Of a stretch of DNA of 64,000 bases, positions 2,573 through 64,000 are shown piece after piece. The DNA comes from Dictyostelium discoideum (taxonomy: Eukaryota): NCBI GenBank assembly GCA_000004695.1, contig CM000151.3, forward strand, positions 7,872,001 to 7,936,000, written 5' to 3'. Below the pieces are notes generated by a model. The model was not told the DNA's origin. It saw nothing but the letters and a program-made list of their open reading frames with translations, and did not search any database. Every line of letters begins with the position of its first letter. Positions within the stretch are counted from its first letter, which is position 1. Made by a program: the position numbers and the translations under genes.

Positions 2573-3183
2573 TTAGTTGAAAATTTTTTTCAATCTTTCA
2601 ATATTGACTACTTTATGATCTCTAAGATTACCCATATCTAATTTGAATGTAACATCGCTAACTTTTTCTTGAACTTTAAAAGGACCTCTCCAAGGTTTAT
2701 AGAATTTCTTTGGACCAATAGAAGTTTGTGAATATGGTGTATGTAAATAAACAAAATCACCTGTTTGAATATTTGTTGGACGACGACCTTTATCATAATT
2801 TGTTTTTTGTAATTCTTGAGCTTTATCGAGATTATTCTTTGTAAACCAAAAGGCACGTTTAAGATTATTATTTACGGATTGTGCATAATTATCAGCGAAA
2901 TCTAATCTTAGTGAATTTGTACATGGATTTCTTATTAATGGTTGAATTGAAGTTATTTGTGATTTAATTATTGAATTCTCTGTTTGATTTAATGATATTG
3001 ATTTTAATGGTAAATTTGATGTTATTGGTGAATCTATTGGTTCTTGGAATAAGAATTCTGGAATATCGTAATCTATTGGTAGTTGTTCTTCAATAGTTGG
3101 ATACGATTTGATTGATAGTATATGATGAGAATTAAAATTTTCAATTAAATGATCAGTATCTGTTAATAATTCTGATTTTGATG

Positions 3184-3217
<34 letters not shown>

Positions 3218-4469: not shown

Positions 4470-4471
<2 letters not shown>
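2573..4471 (-). CDS. gag-pro-(deleted pol)-integrase C-terminus fusion ORF of the LTR element (632 aa)
   Basis: CCHC zinc knuckle CKYCKKKGHVIQEC. Aspartic protease motif LIDTGSSL. The C-terminus ...GDFVYLHTP...KPWRGPFKV...FKL...H.VVNIERLKK is typical of Ty3/gypsy integrase tails. No RT or RNase H motifs lie between. Confidence 0.6.
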
Positions 4472-6700: not shown

Positions 6701-6782
6701 CGACATCGGCAGGGTTCGAACCTGCGCCCCCGAAGGGATCTGATTTCTAGTCAGACGCATTAGACCACTTTGCTACGATGTC
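6701..6782 (-). tRNA. tRNA-Ser (anticodon AGA), class II with a long variable arm, no intron
   Basis: Reverse complement: GACATCG TA GCA AAGTGGTCTAA TGC G TCTGA CTAGAAA TCAGA TCCCTTCGGGGGC GCAGG TTCGAAC CCTGC CGATGTC G. The 7-bp acceptor stem pairs, the T-arm is GCAGG/TTCGAAC/CCTGC, the anticodon loop is CT-AGA-AA, the A box is TAGCAAAGTGG and the B box GGTTCGAACCC. A T5 Pol III terminator lies 5 nt downstream on the - strand (6692-6696). Confidence 0.9.
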
Positions 6783-7580: not shown

Positions 7581-8915
7581 ATGAAAATCACAAACAACAC
7601 CACAAATATTAAGCAACACAAATGCCTACAAAAAATAAGCGAAATTGTGGATAAAACTCAATTAAAAAAAAAACAATTCAAATACGTCATAAACATCAAT
7701 CACGAACCAGACGATAAAATAAAAAAAGATTTAGAAAAAAGTTTGGACAAAAAAGATGTTTTAATCAAAAGTAATAATACATTCAAAATTCTCACAGACA
7801 GTATTAGTACAGTAATCTATTTTGTAAATATGTTTGATGCAGAATTAAAAGGACAATTTATAACCACTATAAGACCAAAAAATATGTATACAGATTTTGA
7901 TTGGTATAAATCACTCACAGAAATAGAATGGGTAATAGAAAATGAAGGATGTAAACTAATTAAATCAGAAATTAAAGGCGAAACTCTAATTATCAAAACA
8001 GTGAAAAGAGTCGTAGAAGAATTTGACACTATCATTGAACTAGACAATCTAACATTAATTGGACACTCCAACAAAGGATGGAGAGATCAAACCTCATTAC
8101 CAGAAAATCAAGAAGAAAACAAAAATAAAAAACAATCAGATGAACAACAACCACAATCTACATCAGAACAAATACCAAAACAAGGAAAAAGAACAATCAT
8201 TATCCCACCAATCACATCCTCATCTAATGATAAAACATTTATGGCCCTAGATGATACAGCTCAAAAGGTAATAGAAGCATCACTAGAAAACGTAGATGAA
8301 CTAACAAGAATAGAGAATGAGATCAATACACAATCGATAAACAATCAAGAAATTAAAACAAAATCAGAAAAACCTATCGAACCACCATCTCCATACAATA
8401 CACCAATAAAACAACACGGCGAAACAAAGGGACTAACAACGGAAGAAAAACTTAGAGAAGCAAATGATATCTTCGACTTCACCAGCCCAAACACTGATGC
8501 AATAAGAAAAATAGAATTCCCACTTTCAATCCCTTCAAATCAATGGTTCTTCTCCTCTCCAATAAAACATATCATGAGTTTCAGCCCAACCTATGGTACA
8601 CCATCGAAAATTATCGATTCACCAAGTAAATTGTTAAACACACCAAAAAAGAAACAACAAGACAAAACAAACAAGACCAACAAAACACCAGTCAAACCAA
8701 AATTGGGTGAATATGGACAAAAAAGCATAAAAACAAAAATGGATGAAGATATAGACAACTTCAACAAGGAAATTCTAAAACAAATCAATAAATCAAAAAA
8801 CCCCACAAACACACAAGACCAACAACACAATGAACAAAGTAAAGATCAGTTAGAAGACAAAATAAACCAGAAACTTCAAAAGGTAGATAAAAATCTACCC
8901 CAAATAAAACTATAA
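7581..8915 (+). CDS. TRE5-A ORF1 protein
   Basis: 444-aa ORF, ~99 % identical to 301-1635 and 10048-11382. Confidence 0.85.
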   Translation: MKITNNTTNIKQHKCLQKISEIVDKTQLKKKQFKYVININHEPDDKIKKDLEKSLDKKDVLIKSNNTFKILTDSISTVIYFVNMFDAELKGQFITTIRPKNMYTDFDWYKSLTEIEWVIENEGCKLIKSEIKGETLIIKTVKRVVEEFDTIIELDNLTLIGHSNKGWRDQTSLPENQEENKNKKQSDEQQPQSTSEQIPKQGKRTIIIPPITSSSNDKTFMALDDTAQKVIEASLENVDELTRIENEINTQSINNQEIKTKSEKPIEPPSPYNTPIKQHGETKGLTTEEKLREANDIFDFTSPNTDAIRKIEFPLSIPSNQWFFSSPIKHIMSFSPTYGTPSKIIDSPSKLLNTPKKKQQDKTNKTNKTPVKPKLGEYGQKSIKTKMDEDIDNFNKEILKQINKSKNPTNTQDQQHNEQSKDQLEDKINQKLQKVDKNLPQIKL

Positions 8916-10047: not shown

Positions 10048-11382
10048 ATGAAAATCACAAACAACACCACAAATATTAAGCAACACAAATGCCTACAAAA
10101 AATAAGCGAAATTGTGGATAAAACTCAATTAAAAAAAAAACAATTCAAATACGTCATAAACATCAATCACGAACCAGACGATAAAATAAAAAAAGATTTA
10201 GAAAAAAGTTTGGACAAAAAAGATGTTTTAATCAAAAGTAATAATACATTCAAAATTCTCACAGACAGTATTAGTACAGTAATCTATTTTGTAAATATGT
10301 TCGATGCAGAATTAAAAGGACAATTTATAACCACTCTAAGACCAAAAAATATGTATACGGATTTCGATTGGTATAAATCACTCACAGAAATAGAATGGGT
10401 AATAGAAAATGAAGGATGTAAACTAATTAAATCTGAAATTAAAGGCGAAACTCTAATTATCAAAACAGTGAAAAGAGTCGTAGAAGAATATGACACTATC
10501 ATTGAACTAGACAATCTAACATTAATTGGTCACTCCAACAAAGGATGGAGAGATCAAACCTCATTACCAGAAAATCAAGAAGAAAACAAAAATAAAAAAC
10601 AATCAGATGAACAACAACCACAATCTACATCAGAACAAATACCAAAACAAGGAAAAAGAACAATCATTATCCCACCAATCACCTCCTCATCTAATGATAA
10701 AACATTTATGGCCCTAGATGATACAGCTCAAAAGGTAATAGATGCATCACTAGAAAACGTAGATGAACTAACAAGAATAGAGAATGAGATCAATACCCAA
10801 TCGATAAACAATCAAGAAATTAAAACAAAATCAGAAAAACCTATTGAACCACCATCTCCATACAATACACCAATAAAACAACACGGCGAAACAAAGAGAC
10901 TAACAACGGAAGAAAAACTTAGAGAGGTAAATGATATCTTCGACTTCACCAGCCCAAACACTGATGCAATAAGAAAAATAGAATTCCCACTTTCAATCCC
11001 TTCAAATCAATGGTTCTTCTCCTCTCCAATAAAACATATCATGAGTTTCAGCCCAACCTATGGTACACCATCGAAAATTATCGATTCACCAAGTAAATTG
11101 TTAAACACACCAAAAAACAAACAACAAGACAAAACAAACAGGACCAACAAAACACCAGTCAAACCAAAATTGGGTGAATATGGACAAAAAAGCATAAAAA
11201 CAAAAATGGATGAAGATATAGACAACTTCAACAAGGAAATTCTAAAACAAATCAGTAAATCAAAAAACCCCACAAACACACAAGACCAACAACACAACGA
11301 ACAAAGTAAAGATCAGTTAGAAGACAAAATAAACCAGAAACTTCAAAAGGTAGATAAAAATCTACCCCAAATAAAACTATAA
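10048..11382 (+). CDS. TRE5-A ORF1 protein
   Basis: 444-aa ORF. Confidence 0.85.
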   Translation: MKITNNTTNIKQHKCLQKISEIVDKTQLKKKQFKYVININHEPDDKIKKDLEKSLDKKDVLIKSNNTFKILTDSISTVIYFVNMFDAELKGQFITTLRPKNMYTDFDWYKSLTEIEWVIENEGCKLIKSEIKGETLIIKTVKRVVEEYDTIIELDNLTLIGHSNKGWRDQTSLPENQEENKNKKQSDEQQPQSTSEQIPKQGKRTIIIPPITSSSNDKTFMALDDTAQKVIDASLENVDELTRIENEINTQSINNQEIKTKSEKPIEPPSPYNTPIKQHGETKRLTTEEKLREVNDIFDFTSPNTDAIRKIEFPLSIPSNQWFFSSPIKHIMSFSPTYGTPSKIIDSPSKLLNTPKNKQQDKTNRTNKTPVKPKLGEYGQKSIKTKMDEDIDNFNKEILKQISKSKNPTNTQDQQHNEQSKDQLEDKINQKLQKVDKNLPQIKL

Positions 11383-11384
11383 AG

Positions 11385-14300
11385 AAAAACACAATAAGAA
11401 TAGGTGTTTGGAACGTCCAAGGATCCAACACCATCCAATCTGCCAGCATAATAAACACCGTATTAGACAACAACAAGCTGGACGCAGCACTTCTAACTGA
11501 AACAAATATAAAAACAAATAAAATTTACTCAATAAATCAACAATATAAAAACAAAATAACACACCACGCACCAATTGATAAAACAGGACAAGGGGTGTCA
11601 CAAATCATCATCAACACCCAAATAAAAACAACAACAAAAACAATAAACGAAAGAATTATATCTTCCGAATGGATGATTGCAAAAACACAGATCAAATGCA
11701 CAACCATTTATGCCCCAGCAAAGTCAAACGAAAGACATGAATGGTATAAGGAAAATCTCACAGAAGAAATACTACACAGCGATATTATAACTGGAGACTT
11801 CAATGTAGACTGTTCAGTGGATAATAACCTTAACAAATATATTAAAACAATCTTCGACGAATTCGAATTTACAGAAATTAAGAATGGAATCACATTTCCA
11901 AGAAACAAATCAACCATCGATAGGGTCTTTGTCTCAAAGAAGATACTCCATCTAAACCCAATAGTTACTACTAAGGAAATCAAATTAAAATCTGATCACA
12001 ACATGGTAATCATTGAATTAAAAATACCAGAATACGAGCAACAAAAGAAAGGAGAAAGACTATGGAGACAAAACCTAGAAACTCTCAAAATGAATTCAAC
12101 CAGCCTCAAAATTAATAAAACAATTAAATACTACAATAAAAAATTCGAAGAGAACACCAGCAAATGGTACAAATTAAACATTTGCGAACAATGGTTGAAA
12201 CTAAAAGATGAAATAAAGAAACTGTCAATTAATATAGAAATTAGAGAAAGCAATAAAACCAAAAACAAACTAAAAGAACTCGCAGAAAAACTCGAAACAG
12301 CCAAAGATTCAAGAGCAATCTTCCTTAAAGAAGAGATCAACAATATTCTAAAGGAACAAGTAAGAATAAAACAAGCAAACCAAACCAACACCCACATCAA
12401 CAACAAAGAAACACCATCAAAATACTTAACCAGAAGGTTAAAAGTCCAAAGAAAGACAAATGAAATCCCTCAAATTCTAGATCCAAGCAACAATTGTTTG
12501 GTAACAAAAAACGAGGATATCCTCGAAGTAGCAAGAAGATATTACGAGAACCTGTACCAGAAGAGAGAATGCAACGAAGACACTCACCACGAACTCCTAA
12601 AAACATTCAATAAAAGGATTGATCAAAAGATATTGGACGAAATTAATCAACCAATAGAAGGATATGAAATCAGACTAGGCATTGAAAAAATACAAGAAGG
12701 AAAAGCACCTGGTAAAGATGGACTCCTTCCAACATTTTACAAAAACCACATTAATGAAATTCTACCAATAATATCAAAACTATACAATCACTTCTGGAAC
12801 ACAACAATCCCAAAGGACTTCAAACAAGGGATATTGATTACTATATATAAAAACAAAGGAGACCCAAACAACCTGGATAATTATAGACCAATAACACTTC
12901 TAAATGTCGATTACAAAATCTATTCGAAAATAATCAACAATAGGATCCTGAAGTTCTTAAACAAAATAATCTCACCATTCCAAACTGGATTCGTACCAAG
13001 AAGACTACTGCACGATAACATCATCACCTTAAACTCAACAATAGAAATAATAAAACGAGAGATTAACACAAAAGAGGATATGGAACCAATCATAACATTT
13101 TATGATTTTGAAAAAGCATTCGATTCAATCTCACATAACGCCATTCTACGTACTCTTGCACATCTAAAACTACCACTCAAAATGGTCCTCACAATAATGA
13201 ACTTACTCAATGAATCAGAAACATCAGTGTACATCAATAACTCATTATCTAAAAGCTTTACATCAAAAAGAGGAACCAAACAAGGTGATCCTATCTCTCC
13301 CACTATCTTCGCATTAGTGGTTGAATGCATGGCAACTACTATAATAAATGACCGCTGCATCAATGGTGTAACCAAAGAAACCATTAAAATACTACAGTTC
13401 GCCGATGATACAGCAACAATAGCATACAACTTTATGGACCATTTCCTCATGAATGAATGGATCAAGAAGTTTTGCCAAGCAACCAGCGCAAAAATAAACC
13501 AAACCAAATGCTCGTGTATCACTTTCAAATGGAACACCAGAACGCTATACACCGTCATAAAATCAAACGAAAGGTACCTCGGCTTTGACTTCAACAATAA
13601 GGGTATCAAATCCAAAATCAATACAATCTCAGACAACATCAGAGCTAAACTAGTAACATGGAACTCAACTTCATCAACCTATATGGGCAGACTCATAATG
13701 GCAAAAACATATGCACTATCTCAGTTAACGTTCCACACTTACATCAACACCACACCACAACACAATAGTATTGAAAATAACATCGTAAAATTCGTTTTCA
13801 ACACAAAATCTAAAAACTCTCTTTCACTACAAAGAAGACAAAACAACTATATCAATGGTGGCCTAAACTTATGGAACCTGAAGACAAGAGAACTAGCACA
13901 GAAAGCATGGTTATTCGAAAGATACCTCCACCAAAGAGTAAGTAACACTCCTAGTTCATATATAAAACTGTGGGAAGAGGAACTCAAAAACAACAACAAC
14001 AACAAAACAACAACAAAACAAAATCAACTACAACTACACTGGCAATGCAAGCAAGCATGGACCCAATTAAAAACTCCACAAAATAAACAAACACACTACG
14101 AACACCTCCCAAAATTAAAAAAAATATACGAAGATATGATGACAACTCAATCTCCTGAACACAACAAATTCATACCAACTCCTGGCCAAAAAGAAATAAT
14201 GACCAAAATTAATAGCAAACACCTTCCATTTAAAGAAATCAAAAAAATAATAAACATGAAAGGTAGAGATCTATTATGGAGATACACACTGAAAGCACTA

Positions 14301-14816
14301 CCAAAAATATACAACATGCCATGCCAACAGTGTGGGGAAGATGAGACCTCAGAACATATATTCTTCAACTGCAAAGCCCACATCAAAAACACACAAGAAA
14401 TCTTCAACTACACCCTAACTAAGTCTGGACACACCACTCACACCTGGAATGTGAAGATTTTAAACCATCTACAAATTGCACTAGTAGCCAATTTAATAGC
14501 TATTATATTCGATAAAATCTGGCACAAAAGAAATAAACTCATTCACGATGAAAAAGAAATAATAATTCACAGACAACAAGTCATACGTGAACTAATTAAA
14601 ACACAAAGAGCTGCATGGGACAGGACACAAGCGGTTATAAACAAAACATTAAGAATCAAATCAAAACAACGGCCAGAAGAACAAAATAAATTAGACTCAC
14701 TAATCTCGCTAAAGCTATTACAATTTAGCAGACAATGGAACTCACCTCTTCACGCAATAGAACTTCCTAAACATCTCAAAAAATACAATAATTCACTCAG
14801 TACTTTCTATAAATAA
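11385..14816 (+). CDS. TRE5-A ORF2 polyprotein (endonuclease, reverse transcriptase, C-terminal zinc-finger-like domain)
   Basis: Long open frame of ~1140 codons. RT block: ...YRPITLLNVDYKIYSKII...QFADDTA.... Cys-rich C-terminus. Confidence 0.85.
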   Translation, partial: KNTIRIGVWNVQGSNTIQSASIINTVLDNNKLDAALLTETNIKTNKIYSINQQYKNKITHHAPIDKTGQGVSQIIINTQIKTTTKTINERIISSEWMIAKTQIKCTTIYAPAKSNERHEWYKENLTEEILHSDIITGDFNVDCSVDNNLNKYIKTIFDEFEFTEIKNGITFPRNKSTIDRVFVSKKILHLNPIVTTKEIKLKSDHNMVIIELKIPEYEQQKKGERLWRQNLETLKMNSTSLKINKTIKYYNKKFEENTSKWYKLNICEQWLKLKDEIKKLSINIEIRESNKTKNKLKELAEKLETAKDSRAIFLKEEINNILKEQVRIKQANQTNTHINNKETPSKYLTRRLKVQRKTNEIPQILDPSNNCLVTKNEDILEVARRYYENLYQKRECNEDTHHELLKTFNKRIDQKILDEINQPIEGYEIRLGIEKIQEGKAPGKDGLLPTFYKNHINEILPIISKLYNHFWNTTIPKDFKQGILITIYKNKGDPNNLDNYRPITLLNVDYKIYSKIINNRILKFLNKIISPFQTGFVPRRLLHDNIITLNSTIEIIKREINTKEDMEPIITFYDFEKAFDSISHNAILRTLAHLKLPLKMVLTIMNLLNESETSVYINNSLSKSFTSKRGTKQGDPISPTIFALVVECMATTIINDRCINGVTKETIKILQFADDTATIAYNFMDHFLMNEWIKKFCQATSAKINQTKCSCITFKWNTRTLYTVIKSNERYLGFDFNNKGIKSKINTISDNIRAKLVTWNSTSSTYMGRLIMAKTYALSQLTFHTYINTTPQHNSIENNIVKFVFNTKSKNSLSLQRRQNNYINGGLNLWNLKTRELAQKAWLFERYLHQRVSNTPSSYIKLWEEELKNNNNNKTTTKQNQLQLHWQCKQAWTQLKTPQNKQTHYEHLPKLKKIYEDMMTTQSPEHNKFIPTPGQKEIMTKINSKHLPFKEIKKIINMKGRDLLWRYTLKALPKIYNMPCQQCGEDETSEHIFFNCKAHIKNTQEIFNYTLTKSGHTTHTWNVKILNHLQIALVANLIAIIFDKIWHKRNKLIHDEKEIIIHRQQVIRELIKTQRAAWDRTQAVINKTLRIKSKQRPEEQNKLDSLISLKLLQFSRQWNSPLHAIELPKHLKKYNNSLSTFYK

Positions 14817-30631: not shown

Positions 30632-30662
<31 letters not shown>

Positions 30663-30744
30663 CTTTTTTTTTTTTTTCTTTTTTTTTTTTTAAAAAATTA
30701 TTTGTATTAATATTATTATTATTTTTTTTTAAAAAATTAATGGC

Positions 30745-32138
30745 TTAATAGTCCCATTCATCATTTGCATCTTGGAAGTCATCATCATTCCAATTATCAC
30801 CATCTTCATTGTCCCAATCATTATCCCAATCATTACCCCAATCATTATCATTGTCCCAATCATTATCATAGTCATCATCACCATAATAATTGTCATCATC
30901 ATAATCACCATCATAATCACCATCATAGTCACCGTCACGGCCATCATAATCACCATCATATTCATCATCATCATAGTCACGATCATCATAGTCACGATCA
31001 TCATTTTCATTTTCAGCCCAATCAAGGGATCTTGGTTGTCTTGGTGGATCAAATTCACAACTTAAGATACCACCACGTCTTTCAACACATCTATGGAAAT
31101 CTGGACATTCGACATCATCACATCTTGCTTTCTTACAATCTGGAACACATTTTACACCATCAATTTTATCACCACATATGCAATGGTAATTTGGAGGACA
31201 ACGAGTATTATCACAAGTTGGTTTTACACAAATGATTCTGTCTTTGGTGGCAACACATTTTTCATCTCTGGCACATGAATTTGGTTTACAACATGGTCTC
31301 TTTGGAGTTCTCTTGACACAACATTTGGAGCCATCATGTTTGATTTTACATTCATAACCTCTCTTACATTTGAGGTCACATCTATCATGATGACGTTTTT
31401 TAACGCAACATTCTTTACCATGTTCATCATGTTTGCATTCATGACCTGGTGGACATCTTAATCTGCAGATTGGTGGACGTGGATGTGGTTTATGTGGTCT
31501 TGGTCTCCATGAACGGACACAGCATTTACTACCATCATGTTTGATCTTGCATTCATGACCCTTTGGACAACGCAAGTCACAAATATCATCACATTTGATC
31601 TTTACGCAACATTCTTTACCCCATTCATCAACTTTACATTCATGACCTTCTGGACATCTAGTTCTACAAACTGGTGGATATGGTCTCCATGGAACACAAA
31701 GAGCAAGATCTTTTTCCCAATCATATTTGCAATTAAATCCTTTTGGACAATGGACATTATCACATTTATCAAATGGTGGCAATGTAATTTGATCTTCAAC
31801 ACATTGTCTATTACCATTATTTACTTCACAATGATATCTTGGTGGACATTGAAGTGTTGAACAGTCTATATAAAAAAGTCAAGATTTAATAATAATAAAT
31901 AAAAAAAAAAAAAAAAAAAAAAGTATTAATACCAAATTTTTTTATTTTATTATTTTTATGTATATAGTTTAAAATAAAACTTACCTAAAATTGGACCATT
32001 ATTGTTCCAATCACCATTATTGTTCCAATCGCCATTATTGTTCCAATCACCATTATTGTTCCAATCACCATTAACTTCACCATAAACTTTACCTCCCATA
32101 CATAAGGCACCTACAACTAATAATGATAAAATCTTCAT
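30745..32138 (-). CDS. Secreted cysteine-rich repeat protein, two exons 32138..31985 and 31865..30745, ~425 aa. It has a signal peptide, (GDWNNN)4, ~10 tandem Cys modules of type C-x-LRCP-x-GHECK-x-D-x-GKECCV, and an acidic DYDGDYDG/NDWDNDWDN tail.
   Basis: MKILSLLVVGALCMGG signal peptide. The ORF frame is open upstream of the listed M (a non-ATG start) to an ATATAG acceptor. Donor GTAAGT, phase 1. Paralogous to the gene at 60696-62913. Confidence 0.7.
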
Positions 32139-33077
32139 TTTTTTTTTTTTTTGTTTTTTTTTTTTTTAAATTACTAGTTTTTGTTACAAATTGATTTTAC
32201 AAATTTACTAAATATAAAAAACTTTTTATTAGAATTTTTAAATATTAAAAAAATTATTTATTTTAAATTTATGATTTTATAAATATTATATGTTTATTAA
32301 ATTTCTTTTTTTTTTTTATATTAAATTATATATTGATAAATATATATATATATTAATAATTACATTTTAACTTTTTTTAATTGTATTGATATTTAATTTG
32401 AATATGAACAAAATACTACAATGATTTAATATTTTTTTTTTTGAATAATTAAATAGATTATACTTTTTGTCTGTTAACTTTTTTTTTTTTTTTTTGAAAA
32501 TAAAAAATAAATAAATAATAAAAAAAAATAATACAATTTAATAAAAAATAATTATTAAATTTGTTCTATGTTTTACAAATTATAATTGGTGTGAATTTTT
32601 TCATATGCTTGTGTGTTGGGAGTGTGTTTGAAAATAAAATTTTTTTCTATCGCTATTAATAGAAAATTCTCACAGTGTATATATATATTATTGTTTTTTT
32701 GGAAAAAAAAATAATTGAGTTGAAAGTGTGTTAATGTGTGAATGAATATTGAACAATGTACAATAAATAATTTTTATATGAGAAATGTAAAAAATGGGGT
32801 AAATTAGTGTGTGGGTGTGTGAAAAAAAAAACAATTTATTAATTATTTGATTGATATACAAATATTTTAATGTAGTATGGGATTTTTTTTTTGGTATTTT
32901 TATTTTTTTTATTTCTTTTTTTTTTTTATTTTTTTATTTTTTTTTAATAAAAATGTATATTTTTTGTAGATTATTATACCTATGATTTTAATCACAATGA
33001 TTTTTTAAATTTGGATATTCCCAGTAAAATCTTTTTTAATTAAATAGGTTAAAAAATAAAATAAAAAAACAAAATTA

Positions 33078-33285: not shown

Positions 33286-33341
<56 letters not shown>

Positions 33342-33342
33342 G
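33286..33342. repeat. (AAT)19 microsatellite, intergenic
   Basis: Perfect ataataat run. Confidence 0.9.
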
Positions 33343-33629
33343 GAATATTAGTTTATGTTTTAAAATTTAAATTCATTTTGAATTAATTAATTTGAAAATA
33401 ATTCTTAATATATTGAAGTTCAAAAATAAATTTCCATTTGAATTTATTAAAAAAATATATTAGTGATTGTATAAAAAAAAGTTTATTTTATTTTTTCCAA
33501 AATAAAAATAAATATAAAAAAAATAAAGGTATTTTATTTATTTCTTTTGTTTTGTTTTTGTTTTTTTATTTAATTTTATTTTGTTTTTTTTTTCTTTTTT
33601 AGTTTTTTTTATTTTTTTTATTATTTCAT

Positions 33630-35779
33630 TTATAAACTCTTTTTATTTTGATATTCTTTAAGGGCAGATCTATAATCGATTTCAGGTACATGATCAATTG
33701 GAGCATCGAGATCAACATATTCTCTAATTCCTCTTGGATCCATTGAGGAGGTACTGTGTCTTGAGGGTTGAGTTGGATAAGGACGATAACGCATTGATTG
33801 TGGTGGACCGCCATCCATACCAGGAGGGCCACTACCATAACGACCTCCACTACCACCACCATTGCTACTACTATTTGGAGAGAGATTACCTGTTGGACCA
33901 CCATAACTTCGTCTCATTGGAACAGGACCACCCACCATATGAGGAGGGATTGGACCTCCGTTGCCACTACCGCCGCCGCCACCACCAGTGGCAGTGCCAT
34001 TTGCACCACCAGGTCTACCACGCATATTATTTGGTGAGGCGAAAACTGGTGACATAATTTGAACCATACCTTGATTTGGAATCATACCTGGAATGATCAT
34101 TGGAACCACCACAGTTTCCCATTGACCAATGGCAGGATTAAATCTAGTTCTTGGTGTTAACATTTGAGTGGCAGTACCAGGTGGATGACCACCTCTACCT
34201 AAGCCTGTACCACCTGGAGCACTAGGTCCGTAACCACCGAAAACCATTTGATTTTGATTTTGACTTTGCGGTGGTAGTGGTGTGATACGACGTGGATCAG
34301 AGAAATAATTTAAAAAGAATTGTTCCTCTGTTCCTTTTGCTTCCGATTCCTTTTGTAAATCTTCAGGATGCTTTAGATTGATATGTTTCTTTACAAACTC
34401 TGCACCTCTAAATAATTTTGAACATAAACTACATTTAAATTTCTCCTCTTCAATCTTTATGGTATTGGTGGCAATATATTCTTCAGCCGCCTTTTCAATT
34501 GATTCCTTACAAGTATATTGTTCTTCTGATGTTGGAATCTTATTAATCTTATTCTTTGTATTATTATCCAAAGATGTTACCCATAACATTTCACTTTCTG
34601 TTGTTAATTTTGGTTGTTTATTATCAATTTCCATTGATGTTGTTGTTGTTGTTGTTGTTGCTGATGTAGTATTATTTGTTGTTGTTGTTTTTGTTGTTGT
34701 TTCATCATCCTCCATTTCTTTATCTTCATCTACTTTTTCAGGTTTATCTTCTTTTATTTTATCTTGATTTTCTTCTTCTACTTTTTCAGGTTTATCCTCT
34801 TGTATTTTATCTTCTTCTTCTTCTTTATCTTCTTTTATTTTATCTTGTTCTTCTTCTTGTTCTTCTTTATTATTTTCTGTTGTTTTTGTTGTTGTAGTTG
34901 CTGTTGTTGATGTGGTAATTGATGATGATGATGATGATGATGATGATTGAATAGCTGTGTTATTATTATTAATATTATTATTATTATTAATGATTGAAGT
35001 TTGTTCACCCTGTGTTCTTCTTAAATGAATGGTACCACATTTTCTAGTGGTTTCACATTCATCACTAAATTCCTCAGAACAATAATAACAATAAAAATGA
35101 ACATATCTAAGATAGAGTATAGTTCTATCTAAACGTTCAATATTTGTTAATGAATCCCATTTCTCGAATGAATTGATTGGATTATTTGTGATACCTTTAT
35201 TTTCATCAAATAATTTCATCAATGTTGTTGATTGTTCTAAATCAATAGTTATTCTATTCTCTGTTGATGCAATATTTGGTGTAATCTTAAATCTTCTTTC
35301 TGCATCTTCTGATGGTTTATTAATATTTAAATATAAATCGAAATCTCTCATCTACATTTTTTTAAAAAAATATATAAATATTTAAGAAATAAAATTAAAT
35401 TAAAAAAAAAAAAAAAAAAACACATACCTTATGACCATTTAATTCTTTTAATGCTTTTGAAGCGAGTTCAGCATTTTTAAAAGTTACCCAACCTAAACGA
35501 TAAAAGTTTTTATATCTAACTGGTTCACTTAATGTTAACTTTGTAACACAAATTTCACCATTTCCAACTTTATTTAAAACTTCCAATAATTCTTCTTTTG
35601 TACAAGTAGGTGATACTGCTTTAATAAATAATGTTGATTTTTCTTTATCATTAATATTAGATTTATTTATAGATGTTATGCTAGTTGATATATTATTATT
35701 GTTGTTGTTATTGGTATTGCTATTATTATTGTTGTTAGTATTATTATTATTACTCTTTTCTTCTGTTTCTGTTGTTGTA

Positions 35780-37799: not shown

Positions 37800-38348
37800 A
37801 TGATAACCAATTTTAACGGAAATGAAAATAAAAAAAAAGTTTTAATATCATTCGATTCATTCAAAGATTGTTTAAGTTCATTCGAAATTGGAAAGTGTGC
37901 TGATAAATCATTAAAAGAAAAATATAGTGGTGGTAGTGGTAGTGATGAAAAACAGATTGAAACAGAAATTTTAAAAATTAGTGATGGTGGTGAAGCATTA
38001 CTCGAATGTTTAGAATCAAGTTTAGGTTTAAAGTTGGTTGAAATTGATACTAAGGAATATTCAATAATTGGACCATTAGGAACTCAAATTGAAAAACCAT
38101 TTGTTCATTATGCAGTAAATGAACAAGAGAAATATGCAGTCATTGAAATGGCAGAAGTTAGTGGTATTCAATTGGTTCCAACCTCAAAACGTAATCCATT
38201 CAATACTACTACCTATGGTACAGGTCAATTAATCAAACATGCCATCGAAATTGGTGGTTATAAAACAATTTATATTGGTGCAGGTGGTTCTGCAACAAAT
38301 GATGCTGGTTTAGGTGCATTACAATCTTTAGATGTGATCGATATTATT

Positions 38349-38413
<65 letters not shown>

Positions 38414-39113
38414 AAATAATAATATATTATTTGGTAAAGATTTAAATAAAATTAAAGAAATTAAAATAAAGAATAAATTTAAATTTAAAGATGTTTTATT
38501 TTATTTTTTAACAGATGTTAGAAATGTAATGATTGGAGAGAAGGGTGCAGTTTATAGTTTCTCTGAACAAAAAGGAGCGAAAACAAAAGAGGATAAAGAA
38601 ATATTAGAGAAAGGAATGATCAATGTTTTAAATCATTTACCAGTGGATATATCAATGATTGAAGGCTCTGGTGCTGCTGGTGGTTTACCAAGTAGTTTTC
38701 TTTCAATTTTCAATGAATCAACTCAAATCATTAATGGCATGGATTTCGTTTGTAAATCCTATGGTTTAGATGAGAAGTTTCAATCAAATCAAATTAAACT
38801 TATAATCACAGGTGAAGGTTGTTTTGATGAAACTACTTTAGATGGTAAAGTTGTTTCAAAAATGTATTATTACTCAAAAACATTCAATTGCAAGTTATTA
38901 ATTATATGTGGTAAAAATAATTTATTAAAATCATCATCATCATCATCATCAGCATCCAATTCATTCCCAAATGATTCAAATATTCAAATCTATGATTTAG
39001 TTTCACTATTTGGTATTGAAAACTCATTAAATAATACCAAACATTGTATTGAAACACTATTTAAACAAAATGAAAATTTAACAATGTTTTTAAATAAAAT
39101 TATATTATCATAA
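37800..39113 (+). CDS. Glycerate kinase (GlxK/GarK family, PF02595-type), single exon, 437 aa
   Basis: VLISFDSFKDCLSS...ISDGGEALLECL...YIGAGGSATNDAGLGALQSL...EGSGAAGGL...ITGEGCFDETTLDGKV matches the bacterial-type glycerate kinase fold. A poly-N insertion interrupts the domain. Confidence 0.8.
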
Positions 39114-48698: not shown

Positions 48699-50522
48699 TT
48701 AATGTAATAATGATTTAACAACTGATTTAATATTCATTCTCTTTAAATCTGTATAATTTTGACCAGTACCTAAAAATAAGATTGGATGACCAGTTGAATA
48801 AACCATTGAGATGGCAGCACCAACTTTATCGTCAATTGTATCAAATTTAGTGAGAATGATACCATCGATTGTACGAATATGAGTTTGAGTTGTATTTGCT
48901 AAAAGGGATAGGGATTTATCGAATTTAGTTAATTGATCAACACCATCATTACCAACTAAAGCTTCACCTACAAATAAGACCAAATCGACATTGTTTTGAT
49001 TGACCAATTTTGAGAGTGCTTTCATTAATGGTTCATTATTTTGCATACGACCAGTTGTATCGATCAAAACCACATCATAGCCGGTATCTTTAGCGAAAGC
49101 AATTGCATCTTGGGCTACTGAAGCGGCATCTTTACTATAACCTCTTTCAAAGAGATGGACATTCAAACGGTCAGCATGAGTTTTCAATTGTTCAATGGCA
49201 CCTGATCTAAAAGTATCACATGCAGCCAACATACATTTGTAACCATTTGCAGTCAACCAATAGCAAACCTTTGCCAAATTTGTACTCTTACCAACACCAT
49301 TTACACCACTGAAAACAATGCTATATGGACGTTTACCTTTAACGGCTTGTACCTCTCTAAGGATATCGATGTTTCTCTTTGGTGTTAGGATTCTTGTGAT
49401 TGTATCTTCCATTTGTTGTTTAACCACTGATGTTACACCTTGGAATGTAGCCAATTTCTTGCCCTCTAAACCTGTGCCAATCGATTGAACAATCTTATCG
49501 GCAACGTCTGGTGCAACGTTCTTTTTTGTTAAATGTAATTTAAAGTCTGCTAAAATTGGCTCCAAATCTTGTTTGTCAATAACACGATTACCAGTGAGTA
49601 CATTGAAATATTTCATAAATCCACTAACTGGTTTAGCCTCTTCTTCATCATCGTCGTCTGATGATGAAACATCCATATCTATATTGAACTTTTGAATCTT
49701 TTCTCTAACAATCTCTGTACCATTACTATTGTCTGATCTATTTAATGCCTCCAATTCTTTTTTTGACAACTTTCCATCTTCCCAAGTTCTTGCTTTCTTT
49801 CCTGTTGATGATGATGCTTGTTTATCTGGTGTATCTTTAACTTTCTTTTTATAGCCACCTGGTGATTTCTTTGCTTTTGCTGCTATTAATTTATTTCTAT
49901 TCTTTATAATTTCTTCATCTCATCATCACTATTTTCAATTCTTGCTACATCTGTTTGTTGATTTTTAGTTGCACCATTACTATTTTCTTCTGAATCACTA
50001 CCACTACTACTATCACTATCATCACTATCATCATCACTACTAATATCGTTTATATTATTTGCTTTATTTTGTTTTCTTCTTTCTGCTTTTTCTTTCTTTT
50101 CTTGTTCTTTTCTTTTAACTTTTTCAACTCTACCTTCTTTAATTGCCCTTTCATTCTTTTGATCTTTTACTAGTTTACCTTTATCTGTATCTTCATATTT
50201 CTTTGGTGCTGAATTTGAAGTTTGTTGTAGTTTTGATCTATTTTCAACATCTTCTAAAATCACTTCAAAATTAAATTCTTGAAATTTATCAACTATTATA
50301 AAATCTGATGATTCCTTTAATTTTAATAATAAATCTTTATACATTTTAATAAATCTTTTCTTTACTGTTGTTAATAATTCTTCAATATATAATAATGTAA
50401 ATATTTTTTGATAAACAACCTTTTTTTTTTTTATTTTTTTTTTATTAATAAATAAATAAATAAATAATAAGGTTAATAATAATAATAATAATAATAATAA
50501 TTTTTTAAATAAATTTATAATT

Positions 50523-50563
<41 letters not shown>

Positions 50564-50764
50564 TACAACAAATATTAAATCAAATTCGTTTGAAAATGTC
50601 CATTTTAATGAATAGCTATCAATTTGAAAAGAGGTTTCTGCGCTTCTTTCCTCTAATAAAACTTTTTTAATTAATGAATTAATTGGAGAACCTTTAATCT
50701 TTGCAAATTCTTTTGACCAAAGTACAATTCCACCTTTTGTTAAAATTGTGAAACTATCTAACAT
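48699..50764 (-). CDS. Signal recognition particle receptor alpha subunit (SR-alpha) homologue, 2 exons 50764..50567 and 50419..48699, with an apparent -1 frameshift near 49904-49925 in this sequence
   Basis: The SRX domain [20 protein letters not shown]...FDLIFV|[16 protein letters not shown] matches SR-alpha. The C-terminal NG domain [14 protein letters not shown]...[11 protein letters not shown]...DTTGRMQ...[14 protein letters not shown] is intact. Frame A ends ...[10 protein letters not shown] and the frame continues in frame B as [19 protein letters not shown].... Confidence 0.8.
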
Positions 50765-51208: not shown

Positions 51209-52168
51209 TTAAACACAAATAGTTGATAAATAATAAATTTCATCAAGAGATGATGAAGAAGATTGATCTTGAAAACCTCCATTACGATCATATAACTCTT
51301 TATCATCTGGAGTGATACCAATGGTATTACCACTTGAATGACCACTTGTATAGGTAATGAAAGCATCGTCGACATTGCTACCTTTACCACCAAGAATTTC
51401 TTTTGGAGTATTTCCAATGGTATTACCACTAAAATGGCCACTTGTACCAGTTTTAACACCAGTATTTCCACCACTAATTTCACCACTAATTTCACCACTA
51501 ATTTCACCAGTGGATGGTGTATTATTATAGAAATTTGGAATAGTTTCACAAACCTCCAAGTCAGAAATAGGAGCGGAACAAGCAGATTCTGTACAACTTT
51601 CGATAACTGGGTAATTATTTTCGTCACAATAAAAAGTGTCTATTACACCCTCTTCTGATGTACTAGAAAATTTAGTATTATTTGTATAATATTCAACTAA
51701 AAGTGGAATGGAAACACAGGTTCCTACTCTATACATCATGGCGATTGAACCAGTTGGAAGTTCTAAATGGTCTATAATCTTATCGACTTTTACCAAACTC
51801 ACCAATTGATAAAATGGTTGAATATATTGATGAATTGAGTCAAATTGAATTGCTGGAATACATGATCCAATTGTAAAGGTTTGGTTATTTAATATCTCTT
51901 CTCCATCATCCATCATATCACAATCAACATTCTCTGAAATTCCAACTGAAACTTTATTATTACCTTCAAGTCTTAATTGAAAACTTGTTTGATCATCAAT
52001 TGTAAAACATGTATCAAGCTTTGCTACATATCCAACACCTGTTTGTTCACCAGAGCAATCTGATGTTAAAAATGGTTCCAATTTAATTGCATACTCAAAA
52101 AAATATTGACCATTGATTAAATTTGTAAATCCAAATACCACTATCATAAAAACTATTGGTAAAAATTT

Positions 52169-52171
<3 letters not shown>
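51209..52171 (-). CDS. Secreted Ser/Gly/Thr-rich protein, 320 aa, single exon, hypothetical
   Basis: Signal peptide MKFLPIVFMIVVFGFTNLINGQ. (GEIS)3 and SGNTIG repeats. No domain recognised. Confidence 0.5.
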
Positions 52172-55669: not shown

Positions 55670-56006
55670 ATGTCAAAAGTGTACTCTAAATCGCAAACCG
55701 TTTCGCCGGGTAAACCTCAAAATATATTTGTTACGGCACTTCCATCTTCAGTTTCTGCACCCTCTTTACTTTCATTACAAAAACCAAACAATGGAGCAGG
55801 GTCACACAGAAAACAAAGACAAAATAGTGGAAGTTCTAAAAATAGACCCAACCTCCCTCTCGACCAAATAAAATCCACAGAAAGAAAAAATAGTGGAAAC
55901 AAATCAAATAATAATAATAATAAAAATAGAAAATATAGTAAAAACAATTCAAATGTTAATAGTAATAATATAAATAGTTCAAGTATTGTAATAAAATGTG
56001 AAGAGC

Positions 56007-56070
<64 letters not shown>

Positions 56071-60695: not shown

Positions 60696-62913
60696 TTAAA
60701 TAAAACCATGACCACCATCTAATAATGGATTAGTGGAATAACATACTGGAACTTTTTCACAACAATTTTCTTTATCAATTGGTACAGTTTTCATGGCACA
60801 ATGTAAACCTTTTCTTTCACAGTTTAGGTCTTCACAAGTTAAACAATCATTTCTACTTTTAACACAGCATTCTTCACCAAAGTGATTGATTCTACATTCA
60901 TGTTTTGGTGGACATCTTAATGAGCATTTTGGTGGTGGTCTATGGGCAACAACGCAACATTCTTTTCCATGTTGATCAACTTTACATTCATGGCCTGGTG
61001 GACATCTCAATGAACATTTATCGTGGTGAACTTTAACACAACATTCTTCACCAAAGTGGTTGACTCTACATTCATGTCTTGGTGGACATCTTAAAGAGCA
61101 TTTTGGTGGTGGTCTATGGGCAACAACGCAACATTCTTTTCCATGTTGATCAACTTTACATTCATGGCCTGGTGGGCATCTCTTATTACATTTTTCATGT
61201 TGTGGTGGGTGTGGTCTTTCTGAACGGACACAACATTTTGAACCATCATGTCTAATTTTACATTCAAAACCTCTACCACAATCTAAATCACAAACTTCAT
61301 CACAATGAATCTTTACACAACATTTTTTACCATGATCATCAAATTTACATTCATGTTTTGGTGGGCATCTTAATGAACAAACTTCTGGTGGTGGTGGTCT
61401 ATGGGATCTGACGCAACATTCTTTACCATTGTGATCAACTTTACATTCATGGCCATGTGGACATCTTAATGAACATCTATCATGGTGAACCTTTACACAG
61501 CATTGATGACCTTGGTCATTAAATCTACATTCATGATTTGGTGGACATCTTAAAGAGCAAACTGGTGGTTTTGGTGGTTGAGTTGGACCACTTGGAACAC
61601 ATTTAGCAGTTTTACCATCTTTACATTCACAATAGAAACCATCTGGACAATTTACATTTGAACATGGGTTAGTGTTACCACCTGATGTACTTGATGAACC
61701 GGTTGTTGGACTTGGAACACATTTAGCAGTTTTACCATCTTTACATTCACAATGGAAACCATCTGGACAAGTTACATCTTTACATGGATCTGGATGACCA
61801 CCTGATGTACTTGATGAACCGGTTGTTGGACTTGGAACACATTTAGCAGTTTTACCATCTTTACATTCACAATGGAAACCATCTGGACAGTCAACATCTC
61901 TACATGGATCTGGATGACCACCTGATGTACCTGTTGATGAACTACCGCCTGATGTACCTCCTCCATTTGGTACACAATTTACGCCATTACTATCCTCTAC
62001 ACAAATATGTCCAATTGGACATAAGGTTGTTAAACATGATGATACACCAGCAGTTGATGAACTGGTTCCTGGTAAACCTGTTCCACCAGTTGTTGATGCA
62101 AGACAAGTTGCAACATCATTTACCATTGAACAATGATAACCTTCTGGACAATGTGTAGTTGAACATGAACTTACACCACCTGATGAACTACCACTTGATG
62201 AACTACCTGATGTACCACCTGATGAACTACCACCTGATGTACCACCTGATGAACTACCACCTGATGTACCACCTGATGAACCACCACCAGATGTTGAACT
62301 ACCAGAGCTTAAACCTTCACCTTTTTTTATAAATTTAAGAAATGAAAAAAATTAATATATTTAGATTTTATTTTATTTTATTTTATTTTATTTTTTTTAA
62401 TCTTTTTACTTACAAATTGATTCACCTGGGCAACAGGAAGTTGGATTTGAACAAGAGTTCTTTTGGAAACTACATGATTTACCTAATAAGGCACATTCTT
62501 TAATCTTGGCATCAGAACAAGAATACTCGGTTGGAGTTGTAATTTTAATAAATCCATCAAGATTGAAGCATTTATTTGATACTTCAACAACTTGGTTATT
62601 GGATGAATTTCTATAACAACTATTTTCATATGTACAAGTATCAAATGTACCTTTAGAGCAAGCCCATTTTTGTTCACCACAACATGGTGTATAATTTATA
62701 ACAATACATTCCGAAGATTTATGACATTCTTCTTCATTAGTAATTTTATTACAATCTAAAATTAAAAAAAAAAAATAAAAAAAAAAAATTTTATATTAAT
62801 ATTTTATATTATATTAAAATATTATAAATCTAATATCAATTTATACCCGTCGCATAGGATTTTGATACAAGGAATATCATAAAAAATACTCCAATATTTT
62901 TTAGAAACAACAT
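60696..62913 (-). CDS. Secreted cysteine-rich repeat protein, paralogue of 30745-32138, 3 exons 62913..62847, 62755..62414, 62320..60696, ~675 aa
   Basis: Signal peptide MLFLKNIGVFFMIFLVSKSYA. N-terminal 12-Cys domain. (SSGGTSGG)n linker. 3x C-x-DV-x-CPDGFHCECKDGKTAKCVPS modules, then ~9x C-SLRCPP-x-HECK-x-D-x-HGKECCV modules of the same type as the 30745 gene. Donors GTATAA/GTAAGT, phases 1 and 1. Confidence 0.7.
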
Positions 62914-64000
62914 CCTTTATTATTTTTTTATTTTTAACTTAGTTAGTTATTGTTTTTTTTTTAATTTGAATTGATTAAAAATAAAATTGAATAATGAATT
63001 AAAAAAAAAAAAAAATATTAATTATTAATACTTTTTTTTTTTTTTGGTTTTTTATTTATTTATTTTTTTTTTTTTATTTATTCAATTTTAAATTTAAAAA
63101 AAAAAAAATAATAAATTATTATTATTGTGCATAATTTATTATTAATTTATTTGATTGTAATTCAGAAAATAGCAAAAAATTAAGAACAACACCACGCACA
63201 TTCACAGCTGTGTAGTAAATTTGGTATATATTAAAAAAACACTACCATAGTGGTAAATATATAATAGTAGCAATTGATATATTTCTACCACTACATATTT
63301 ATTATTCAATTTTTTTTTTTTTTCCCACTCACCCACCTCTGCCACTCTATTATACAAATCTCACCTATATTATTTTTTTTTTTTTACAAATTAACACAAA
63401 AAACAACAAATAAAAAAAATTATGTTTTTTCATATATACATTCATTGTGGGGTATCTATTTTATATCATTGATTTTTTTTCCTTCATTATTTTTAATCAA
63501 CACCCTTTTCATATAATTATTTTTAACATACCCCAAATTTAAACACACAAAAAAAAAAAAAAAAAAAAATTAAATAATTTAAATGAAAAAAGTTATAATG
63601 TACCAATTTACAAATTGAAATTAAAAAAAGCGTATATTATTTATTATTATTATTATTTTTATTTTTATTATTTTTATTATTATTATTAACTTTTTCATTT
63701 TTACAAAAAAAAAAAAAAATAAAATAAAAATAAAATAAAATAAAATATAATATAAAGAAAAAAATAATACTAAATTTAAGAAATCAAATTTGAATAAAAA
63801 TAGGTGTTGGGAATTAATGATACTTACCTTCCCCAATAAACATTTTAGTTTTATTGACATTAATAACAATTTTTAAATTTTTAATATTTTTATTTTGTTT
63901 TATTGAAACATTAAAACAATTTCAATTTATTAATTTAATATAAATCGATTGAAAATTAATTGGAGAAAATTGATTATTATTTTTTTAAAAAAATTTGTTA

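What the first reader, a model, noticed from the sequence alone, without database searches (positions are those of the whole stretch)
30745..32138. Two paralogous secreted proteins built from C-x-LRCPPGHECK-x-D-x-GKECCV modules, 30 kb apart on the same strand
The genes at 30745-32138 and 60696-62913 share 9-10 tandem ~24-aa six-cysteine modules with almost invariant spacing (C-x-LRCP-x-GHECK-x-x-x-x-GKECCV-x-x-H). They differ in their ends. The first has (GDWNNN)4 after the signal peptide and a ~90-aa tail made only of D, Y, W, N, G (DYDGDYDGDYDDD...NDWDNDWDN). The second has a distinct 12-Cys N-domain, a Gly/Ser/Thr linker and three CPDGFHCECKDGKTAKCV modules. The architecture suggests extracellular-matrix or spore-coat-type proteins, and the periodic aromatic/acidic tail could bind calcium or polysaccharide. 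I do not recognise either as a named Dictyostelium gene.
Basis: partly seen in the sequence, partly recalled or inferred. Interest (0 to 1): 0.55.

Follow-up and report, generated by a model that had tools for sequence, protein, structure and literature searches.

The report
Known Dictyostelium spore-coat genes cotC, pspD
The two cysteine-rich genes are real and related, but they are the long-known Dictyostelium discoideum prespore genes cotC (spore coat protein SP60) and, almost certainly, pspD (Dp87), so the finding is ordinary.

Summary
Two spliced minus-strand genes (30745-32138, 424 aa; 60696-62913, 677 aa) encode signal-peptide-bearing, Cys-rich paralogues: 50% identity over 184 aa, E 4e-44. 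Some details need correcting. The strict C-x3-C-x5-C-x8-CC-V module occurs 4 times in gene 1 and 8 times in gene 2, with a 28-38 aa period and a five-Cys core. Counting looser four-Cys modules, the totals are 9 and 13. The N-domain of gene 2 has 16 Cys, not 12.

Neither gene is new. Gene 1 is cotC (SP60, DDB_G0277141). The published cloning primer cotC-r matches the last seven codons exactly. cotC-f matches at -743 from the ATG, as that paper states. The neighbour is the ARS2-type gene srtA, as in AX4.

Gene 2 is pspD (DDB_G0277379). A published ChIP peak "253 nt upstream of pspD" maps within 16 nt of the expected place. The gene order srtA, srpra, pspD fits. Its N-terminus is a clear Pfam Dicty_spore_N domain.

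The modules are the FOLN/EGF-like repeats of a 13-member spore-coat family already counted in the literature. Only the acidic Asp/Tyr/Trp tail has no function that I could find.

The parts
31985..32138 (-). cotC exon 1: ATG, signal-peptide-like MKILSLLVVGALCMGGKVYG, (GDWNNN)x4 (coding 31998-32069)
   Evidence: Sequence and splice model. 18-bp tandem repeat, 4.4 copies, 96%.
31866..31984 (-). cotC intron (GTAAGT...TATATAG, AT-rich, 119 nt)
   Evidence: The join keeps the frame into the long exon-2 ORF.
30745..31865 (-). cotC exon 2 including the stop codon (30745-30747). Cys-module core at residues 53-321 = 31057-31863; acidic D/Y/W/N tail at residues 331-424 = 30748-31029
   Evidence: Published primer cotC-r matches 30748-30768 exactly.
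32611..32821 (-). cotC promoter CA-rich elements: CACACACCCACACAC at 32807-32821, CACACATTAACACAC at 32726-32740, CACACTCCCAACACAC at 32611-32626. The mapped SpaA ChIP summit is about 32676
   Evidence: The pattern CACACN5CACAC occurs only here in 64 kb (2 hits against 0.02 expected). ChIP peak at -538 of cotC. That these are the GBF-binding CAEs of the SP60 promoter is from my memory.
32853..32881 (-). Site of published cloning primer cotC-f, at -743 from the ATG
   Evidence: [quoted passage not shown]
62847..62913 (-). pspD exon 1 (signal-peptide-like MLFLKNIGVFFMIFLVSKSYA)
62414..62755 (-). pspD exon 2: most of the Dicty_spore_N domain (residues 23-138, 16 Cys)
   Evidence: Pfam PF04562, E 2.5e-18, profile positions 1-114 of 115. 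The match spans the exon 2/3 join, which supports the splice model.
60696..62320 (-). pspD exon 3 including the stop. It holds a Gly/Ser/Thr linker, 5 four-Cys modules (three near-identical, from the 120-bp x 2.9 repeat at 61590-61937), 8 CC-type modules (with the 174-bp x 1.9 repeat at 60858-61182, 96%), and a Cys-rich C-terminal cap
63188..63344 (-). pspD upstream G-rich boxes: GTGAATGTGCGTGGTGTTG at about 63188-63206 and GGCAGAGGTGGGTGAGTGGG at about 63325-63344. The mapped SpaA ChIP summit is about 63182
   Evidence: ChIP peak chr2:7935166 'upstream -253 pspD'. That these boxes are regulatory is an inference.

Best explanation
The window is D. discoideum chromosome 2, about 7.872-7.936 Mb of AX4. 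Gene 1 is cotC, encoding spore coat protein SP60. Gene 2 is pspD, the prespore gene known as Dp87.

Both belong to the dictyostelid spore-coat family. Its members are built from disulfide-rich FOLN/EGF-like modules, with or without an N-terminal Dicty_spore_N domain.

Shown by the literature: prespore cells transcribe both genes after aggregation, and the transcription factor SpaA binds both promoters. [quoted passage not shown] Loss of cotC gives an aberrant coat.

Inferred: each about 22-aa module is a small disulfide-stapled beta-hairpin. Strings of them, separated by Pro/His/Arg-rich spacers, would form a stiff, protease-resistant rod. That rod would offer repeated surfaces for binding other coat proteins. 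SP96, SP70, SP60 and SP85 are secreted as a preassembled complex. By analogy with SP85, the modules may also bind cellulose.

In cotC the basic module core (pI 8.7) is followed by a hyperacidic Asp/Tyr/Trp tail (pI about 4). The tail most plausibly acts as an electrostatic or aromatic docking segment within the coat. This step is speculative.
For: cotC identity:
- Primer cotC-r (ATAGTCCCATTCATCATTTGC, PMC5923282 Table S2) matches 30748-30768 exactly. That is the last seven codons before the stop.
- Primer cotC-f matches 32853-32881, which begins at -743 from the ATG as that paper states.
- The next gene (33630-35351) has ARS2 and DUF4187 domains. This fits DDB_G0277375 srtA (XP_642791.1), which follows cotC (XP_642790.1) in AX4.

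pspD identity:
- The ChIP peak chr2:7935166 'upstream -253 pspD DDB_G0277379', mapped through the cotC peak chr2:7904660 (-538), implies a pspD gene start at window 62929, 16 nt from the ATG at 62913.
- The SR-alpha gene srpra (DDB_G0277377) lies between the two genes, at 48699-49769.
- Dicty_spore_N matches at E 2.5e-18.

Family and biology:
- PMC11574339 and PMC4931340 Table 4 describe cotA-E, pspB and pspD as FOLN with or without Spore_N proteins.
- PMC5923282 reports CotC in prespore vesicles and then in the coat, and SpaA binding at cotC and pspD.
- The supplement of PMC12821622 reports SP60 protein peaking late and 'KO: aberrant spore coat morphology'.

Structure: an AF2 model of four modules gives one beta-hairpin per module.
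Against: - No direct alignment to UniProt P15270 or to the dictyBase pspD protein was possible. The protein databases available here do not hold these sequences.
- The pspD assignment therefore rests on coordinates, synteny and domain content, with a 16-nt offset.
- The printed cotC-f primer has one more A in an A-run than the window.
- From memory, the original Dp87 cDNA product may be shorter than my 677-aa model.
- The structural inference is weak: mean pLDDT is 66.6 and no Foldseek hit is significant.
- Pfam FOLN scores are just below the cut-off.
Confidence: 0.93

Rival explanations
1. Gene 2 is not pspD but a neighbouring, unnamed Dicty_spore_N/FOLN paralogue. The ChIP-peak annotation would then refer to an adjacent gene.
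For: The mapped gene start is 16 nt off. No sequence-level comparison with pspD was possible. D. discoideum has 13 family members.
Against: No other Cys-rich ORF lies near 62.9 kb. The DDB_G numbering srtA 0277375, srpra 0277377, pspD 0277379 follows the window order. An RTE peak maps about 27 nt from the corresponding ORF start, so offsets of this size are typical of this mapping.
Confidence: 0.05
2. The CC-type modules are primarily carbohydrate-binding (cellulose or galactose/GalNAc polysaccharide) lectin units, not protein-protein or structural units. cotC and pspD would then act as cross-linkers of coat polysaccharide.
For: The closest relatives in the big protein database carry the same alternating module pair in their C-terminal halves: 63-68% identity over 17-29% of the query, and 59-67% over the four-module segment. 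They look like SP85-type proteins. From memory, the Cys-rich C-terminal region of SP85 binds cellulose in vitro (Zhang, Brown & West 1998). The supplement of PMC12821622 lists 'abolished cellulose binding' for the cotB knockout.
Against: No carbohydrate-binding Pfam family matches above noise; CBM_1 reaches 12 bits with E 0.16 on one module. The modules carry few exposed aromatic residues. From memory, Dp87 is reported as a soluble sorus-matrix protein rather than being cellulose-bound.
Confidence: 0.3
3. The two genes belong to the prestalk/slime-sheath matrix family (ecmA/ecmB-type 24-aa Dicty_CTDC repeats) rather than to the spore coat family.
For: They superficially resemble that family: tandem Cys-rich repeats of about 24 aa in secreted Dictyostelium proteins.
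Against: Pfam Dicty_CTDC gives no hit at E<=1 for either protein, nor at E<=10 for single modules. The Cys spacing and period differ. Gene 2 has Dicty_spore_N. Both are prespore genes.
Confidence: 0.01

Closest known systems
cotC / spore coat protein SP60 (DDB_G0277141, UniProt P15270; Fosnaugh & Loomis 1989)
   Same: Gene 1 is this gene. The cloning primers, the -743 position, the flanking srtA gene, the SpaA peak and the CA-rich promoter elements all match.
   Different: Nothing detected, apart from one A in a homopolymer run within the printed forward primer.
pspD / prespore gene Dp87 (DDB_G0277379)
   Same: Gene 2 sits at the mapped chromosomal position and in the right gene order. It has the Spore_N plus FOLN-type architecture listed for pspD.
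   Different: Identity was not shown residue by residue. There is a 16-nt offset in the coordinate mapping.
SP85/PsB-type proteins (pspB, DDB_G0291392 and the Dictyostelium spp. hypothetical proteins P0001-P0006)
   Same: They share the alternating module pair CSL(K/R)CPPNH.C..D...K.CCV followed by CDDICDLNCGRG.ECKIKHDGSKCCV, at 59-67% identity over four modules.
   Different: They have a different Cys-rich N-terminal region and Thr-rich linkers. They end in a CCPYTPTCY tail. They have neither GDWNNN repeats nor the long Asp/Tyr/Trp tail. That they are SP85 orthologues is my inference; the sources call them 'hypothetical protein'.
Follistatin-N / osteonectin-type EGF-like module (Pfam PF09289 FOLN; IPR003645)
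   Same: It is the best Pfam match for several modules. The C-x-x-x-C-P-x-G-x-x-C core and the beta-hairpin prediction fit. The top Foldseek hits are follistatin structures, though none is significant. The literature files the family under FOLN.
   Different: Scores are below Pfam's cut-off: 20.7 against 21.1 bits for pspD, and 13-16 bits per module for cotC. The CC doublet and the fifth or sixth Cys are not part of canonical FOLN.

Membership tests
cotC (SP60) locus of D. discoideum | DNA identical to published cotC cloning primers, at the published distance from the ATG | tested here: met
   cotC-r is exact at 30748-30768. cotC-f is at 32853-32881, i.e. -743. The printed forward primer has one extra A.
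cotC (SP60) locus of D. discoideum | Flanked by DDB_G0277375 (C2H2/ARS2-type srtA), as in AX4 protein numbering | tested here: met
   The ORF at 33630-35351(-) has ARS2 and DUF4187 domains. XP_642790 is cotC and XP_642791 is DDB_G0277375 srtA.
cotC (SP60) locus of D. discoideum | Protein identical to UniProt P15270 | not testable with these tools
   The sequence is absent from the searchable collections. The original paper PMC363674 is not held.
pspD (Dp87) locus | Chromosomal position chr2 about 7,934,9xx and gene order srtA, srpra, pspD | tested here: met
   The published pspD peak implies a gene start at window 62929, 16 nt from the ATG at 62913. srpra lies at 48699-49769.
pspD (Dp87) locus | Protein identical to the DDB_G0277379 product | not testable with these tools
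   Not in the collections.
Dictyostelium spore coat family, Spore_N class (Pfam PF04562 / IPR007643) | N-terminal Dicty_spore_N domain above the gathering score | tested here: met
   Gene 2 scores 67.3 bits against a cut-off of 22.3, E 2.5e-18, covering profile positions 1-114 of 115. Gene 1 lacks the domain, so it belongs to the 'FOLN only' class counted in PMC4931340 Table 4.
FOLN / follistatin-N-like EGF module (Pfam PF09289) | Score at or above Pfam's gathering cut-off (21.1 bits) | tested here: inconclusive
   pspD scores 20.7 bits. Single cotC modules score 13.3-16.1 bits. Foldseek's top hits are follistatin, but at E>0.1. InterPro-based papers do assign FOLN.
Dicty_CTDC repeat (ecmA/ecmB matrix proteins, Pfam PF00526) | Match to the 24-aa CTDC repeat profile | tested here: not met
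   No hit at E<=1 for the whole proteins or at E<=10 for modules.
Secreted prespore-vesicle cargo | Cleavable signal peptide, with no GPI or transmembrane anchor | not tested
   No signal-peptide predictor is available. The N-termini have a basic residue followed by a hydrophobic stretch of 13-16 residues, and the C-termini are hydrophilic. PMC4931340 Table 3 marks cotC 'S'. CotC-mRFP localises to prespore vesicles.

The most novel reading that the evidence does not exclude
The 94-aa Asp/Tyr/Trp/Asn tail of SP60 (50% acidic, 11 Tyr mostly in DYD contexts, 7 Trp in NDWD contexts), together with the N-terminal (GDWNNN)x4, could be a so-far uncharacterised functional module. It might be a low-affinity, high-capacity Ca2+ buffer, an aromatic polysaccharide-docking strip, or a substrate for Tyr modification such as cross-linking or sulfation. 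In this reading it drives packing of the basic Cys-module rods in prespore vesicles and in the coat. Nothing I could read assigns it a function, and cotC is restricted to group 4 dictyostelids.
Probability: 0.15. Interest if true: 0.35.

Novelty: already known. Interest (0 to 1): 0.07.

Why it matters
It matters little as a discovery. cotC has been a standard prespore marker since 1989, and pspD/Dp87 since about 1990. The FOLN/Spore_N spore-coat family has already been counted across dictyostelid genomes.

The useful outcome is the negative one. This region can be labelled with confidence as AX4 chr2 about 7.87-7.94 Mb and removed from any list of candidate novelties.

Two small open points remain:
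- The acidic aromatic tail and the GDWNNN repeats of SP60 have no assigned biochemical role that I could find.
- Very recent tandem duplication of two-module units inside pspD (174 bp, 96% identical) shows how these repeat proteins expand.

Tried and rejected
- The large protein search with gene 1 returned only 6 hits, all partial and at 62-67% identity. With gene 2 it returned only 2 (68% and 37% identity). No named orthologues came back.
- Exact-sequence look-up found neither protein in the collection. The identities therefore had to be established from published primers, ChIP coordinates and synteny.
- Three papers were not held: the SP60/SP70 sequence paper (PMC363674; the DOI also failed), the SP65 paper (PMC1951108) and the spore-coat polysaccharide paper (PMC2620749). 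A text search for 'GDWNNN' found nothing.
- The PDB sequence search found no relative at E<=10.
- The AlphaFold2 model of four modules, built from a 7-sequence alignment, reached only pLDDT 66.6. Foldseek against the PDB gave nothing at E<=0.001. The fold assignment stays at 'beta-hairpin, EGF/FOLN-like, unproven'.
- I considered and rejected membership of the ecmA/ecmB Dicty_CTDC family, because there is no Pfam hit.
- I considered a GPI anchor for either protein. It is unlikely because both C-termini are hydrophilic. No predictor was run.
- I did not run the 1.84-billion-protein profile search to count module-bearing proteins. Published InterPro counts already answer that for dictyostelids.

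Full report
**Observation**

The stated intervals hold two spliced genes, both on the minus strand.

Gene 1:
- It starts at ATG 32138. Its 154-nt first exon encodes a hydrophobic leader (MKILSLLVVGALCMGGKVYG) and four exact GDWNNN hexapeptides.
- A 119-nt AT-rich GTAAGT...TAG intron occupies 31984-31866.
- The second exon runs to the stop at 30745-30747, giving 424 aa with 45 Cys.

Gene 2:
- It has three exons: 62913-62847, 62755-62414 and 62320-60696.
- The product is 677 aa with 87 Cys.

The two proteins are clear paralogues. BLASTP gives 50% identity over 184 aa, E 4e-44.

The strict module C-x3-C-x5-C-x8-CC-V occurs 4 times in gene 1 (spacing 29, 38 and 29 aa) and 8 times in gene 2 (spacing 28-34 aa). 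It never occurred in 2000 shuffles of gene 1. Counting looser four-Cys C-x4-C-P-x4-C-x(6-10)-C modules brings the totals to 9 and 13.

- The period is 28-38 aa, not 24.
- The module core has five Cys. A sixth occurs in three of the four CDL-type modules, as a CD(D/E)(I/V) prefix.
- The strict motif is not present 9-10 times in both genes.
- The N-domain of gene 2 has 16 Cys, not 12.
- The 94-aa tail of gene 1 is 85% D/N/Y/G/W rather than purely so.

At the DNA level, gene 1 has an 18-bp repeat (4.4 copies, 96%). Gene 2 has a 120-bp repeat (2.9 copies, 92%) and a 174-bp repeat (1.9 copies, 96%). These show recent internal duplication.

**What gene 1 is**

The supplement of Yamada et al. [quoted passage not shown]

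- The gene-specific part of cotC-r, ATAGTCCCATTCATCATTTGC, occurs once in the window, at 30748-30768. That is the last seven codons directly before the stop.
- cotC-f occurs once, at 32853-32881 on the minus strand. Its first base is 743 nt upstream of ATG 32138. The printed primer carries one more A in an A-run.
- The next gene upstream (33630-35351, minus strand) has ARS2 and DUF4187 domains. [quoted passage not shown]
- Between 470 and 685 nt upstream of the ATG lie three CA-rich elements. The pattern CACACN5CACAC occurs nowhere else in the 64 kb (2 hits against 0.02 expected). From memory, these are the GBF-binding CAEs of the SP60 promoter (Haberstroh and Firtel). I could not read those papers here.
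- Also from memory, the (GDWNNN)x4 repeat and the Asp-rich C-terminus were described in the original SP60 sequence paper (Fosnaugh & Loomis 1989). That paper is not held.

Gene 1 is cotC, encoding spore coat protein SP60.

**What gene 2 is**

The same supplement lists SpaA ChIP-seq summits at chr2:7904660 ('upstream -538 cotC') and chr2:7935166 ('upstream -253 pspD, DDB_G0277379').

- Anchoring the window on the cotC peak gives window = chr2 - 7,871,984. The published pspD gene start then falls at window 62929, 16 nt from the ATG at 62913.
- A third peak, at a retroelement (DDB_G0277281), maps about 27 nt from the 7581 ORF start by the same arithmetic. Offsets of this size are therefore normal for this mapping.
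- The SR-alpha gene srpra (DDB_G0277377) is identified in the window at 48699-49769 by its SRP54 and SRP54_N domains. The window order cotC, srtA (0277375), srpra (0277377), gene 2 matches the numbering that ends in pspD (0277379).
- Residues 23-138 of gene 2 are a full-length Pfam Dicty_spore_N domain: E 2.5e-18, 67.3 bits against a cut-off of 22.3. The match spans the exon 2/3 junction and so supports the splice model.

I could not align the model to the database pspD protein, because the searchable collections do not hold it. I put gene 2 = pspD at about 0.9-0.95.

**The module and the family**

[quoted passage not shown] That paper lists cotA-E, pspB and pspD among the well-characterised members.
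- Glockner et al. (2016, PMC4931340, Table 4) count 2 Spore_N-only, 4 FOLN-only and 7 two-domain proteins in D. discoideum. They mark cotC as signal-peptide-bearing and restricted to group 4.
- In my own Pfam scans, FOLN is the best match but sits just under threshold: 20.7 against 21.1 bits for pspD, and 13-16 bits for single cotC modules.
- The ecmA/ecmB Dicty_CTDC repeat does not match at all.
- No solved structure is detectable by sequence.
- An AlphaFold2 model of the four CC-type modules of cotC (7-sequence alignment, mean pLDDT 66.6) puts one beta-hairpin in each module.
- Foldseek against the PDB gives nothing significant. The top, non-significant hits are follistatin complexes.
- The nearest relatives that the big protein database does hold are 355-591-aa 'hypothetical proteins' from several Dictyostelium species. 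Their C-terminal halves carry the same alternating module pair at 59-67% identity. They look like SP85/PsB-type proteins, but that is my inference.

**How it works**

Shown in the literature I could read:
- cotC and pspD are prespore-specific.
- SpaA binds both promoters.
- SP60 protein rises sharply late in development, together with SP70 and SP85. The knockout is annotated 'aberrant spore coat morphology'.
- The coat proteins are secreted as a preassembled PsB complex (Watson et al. 1994, cited).

Inferred:
- The modules are disulfide-stapled hairpins strung on Pro/His/Arg-rich spacers. Together they would give a stiff, protease-resistant rod with repeated binding faces for other coat proteins and possibly for cellulose. 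From memory, the SP85 Cys-rich region binds cellulose in vitro.
- The Gly/Ser/Thr linker in pspD (51% S+T+G over residues 139-390) is a likely mucin-type O-glycosylation region.
- cotC is strongly dipolar: the module core has pI 8.7 and the tail about 4.05. This suggests electrostatic head-to-tail or heterotypic packing, but it is untested.

**Novelty and verdict**

Both genes are named, cloned, knocked out or profiled, and used routinely as markers. The domain family has been catalogued.

The only loose end is that the acidic aromatic tail and the GDWNNN repeats of SP60 have no biochemical function that I could find. Verdict: already known, interest low.

Noticed in passing
window 301-1635, 7581-8915, 10048-11382 (+); 11595-14816 (+); tRNA-Ser(AGA) at 6701-6782 (-): Three 444-aa ORFs, 98-100% identical to one another, lie beside a 1073-aa reverse-transcriptase ORF (RVT_1, E 3e-33) and a tRNA-Ser gene. 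This looks like a nest of tRNA-gene-targeted non-LTR retrotransposons (TRE5-type; the name is from memory). The ChIP supplement labels DDB_G0277281, which maps here, as an RTE.
   Followed up: partly
window 2573-4471 (-): A 632-aa ORF with retroviral-type aspartyl protease plus integrase C-terminal/SH3 domains. It is a fragment of an LTR-retrotransposon pol gene.
   Followed up: no
window 37800-39113 (+): A 437-aa ORF with a strong match to the bacterial-type glycerate kinase family (PF02595, E 3e-74) in an amoeba genome. It could be an old horizontal acquisition. Not examined further.
   Followed up: no
window 33630-35351 (-), 48699-49769 (-), 55670-58066 (+): Housekeeping neighbours. They are the ARS2/DUF4187 protein (srtA, DDB_G0277375), the SRP receptor alpha subunit (srpra, DDB_G0277377; the ORFs at 49904-50764 and 51209-52171 may be further exons) and a PHO80-like cyclin-domain protein.
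   Followed up: partly
window 32611-32821 (-) and 63188-63344 (-): cotC has three CA-rich boxes on the coding strand, 470-685 nt upstream. pspD has GT/G-rich boxes, the same kind of element in the opposite orientation, 275-430 nt upstream. One of these lies at the mapped SpaA ChIP summit. This suggests shared G-box/CAE-type control with flipped orientation.
   Followed up: partly
window 60858-61182 and 61590-61937 (pspD exon 3): There are very recent in-frame tandem duplications inside pspD. A 174-bp two-module unit occurs 1.9 times at 96% identity. A 120-bp linker-plus-module unit occurs 2.9 times at 92%. Such arrays are prone to copy-number variation and to collapse in cDNA or assemblies. 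That could explain any length difference from older Dp87 sequences.
   Followed up: no
window ~33287-33346 and 30635-30691: A long (ATT)n/(AAT)n microsatellite lies about 1.2 kb upstream of cotC. A 57-nt poly-T tract lies just downstream of the cotC stop. Both are typical AT-rich intergenic DNA of Dictyostelium.
   Followed up: no
protein databases (not a window feature): Neither cotC, pspD nor any near-identical orthologue is present in the 5.8-billion-protein collection, although other Dictyostelium spp. proteins are. Absence of hits there says nothing about novelty for this organism.
   Followed up: yes
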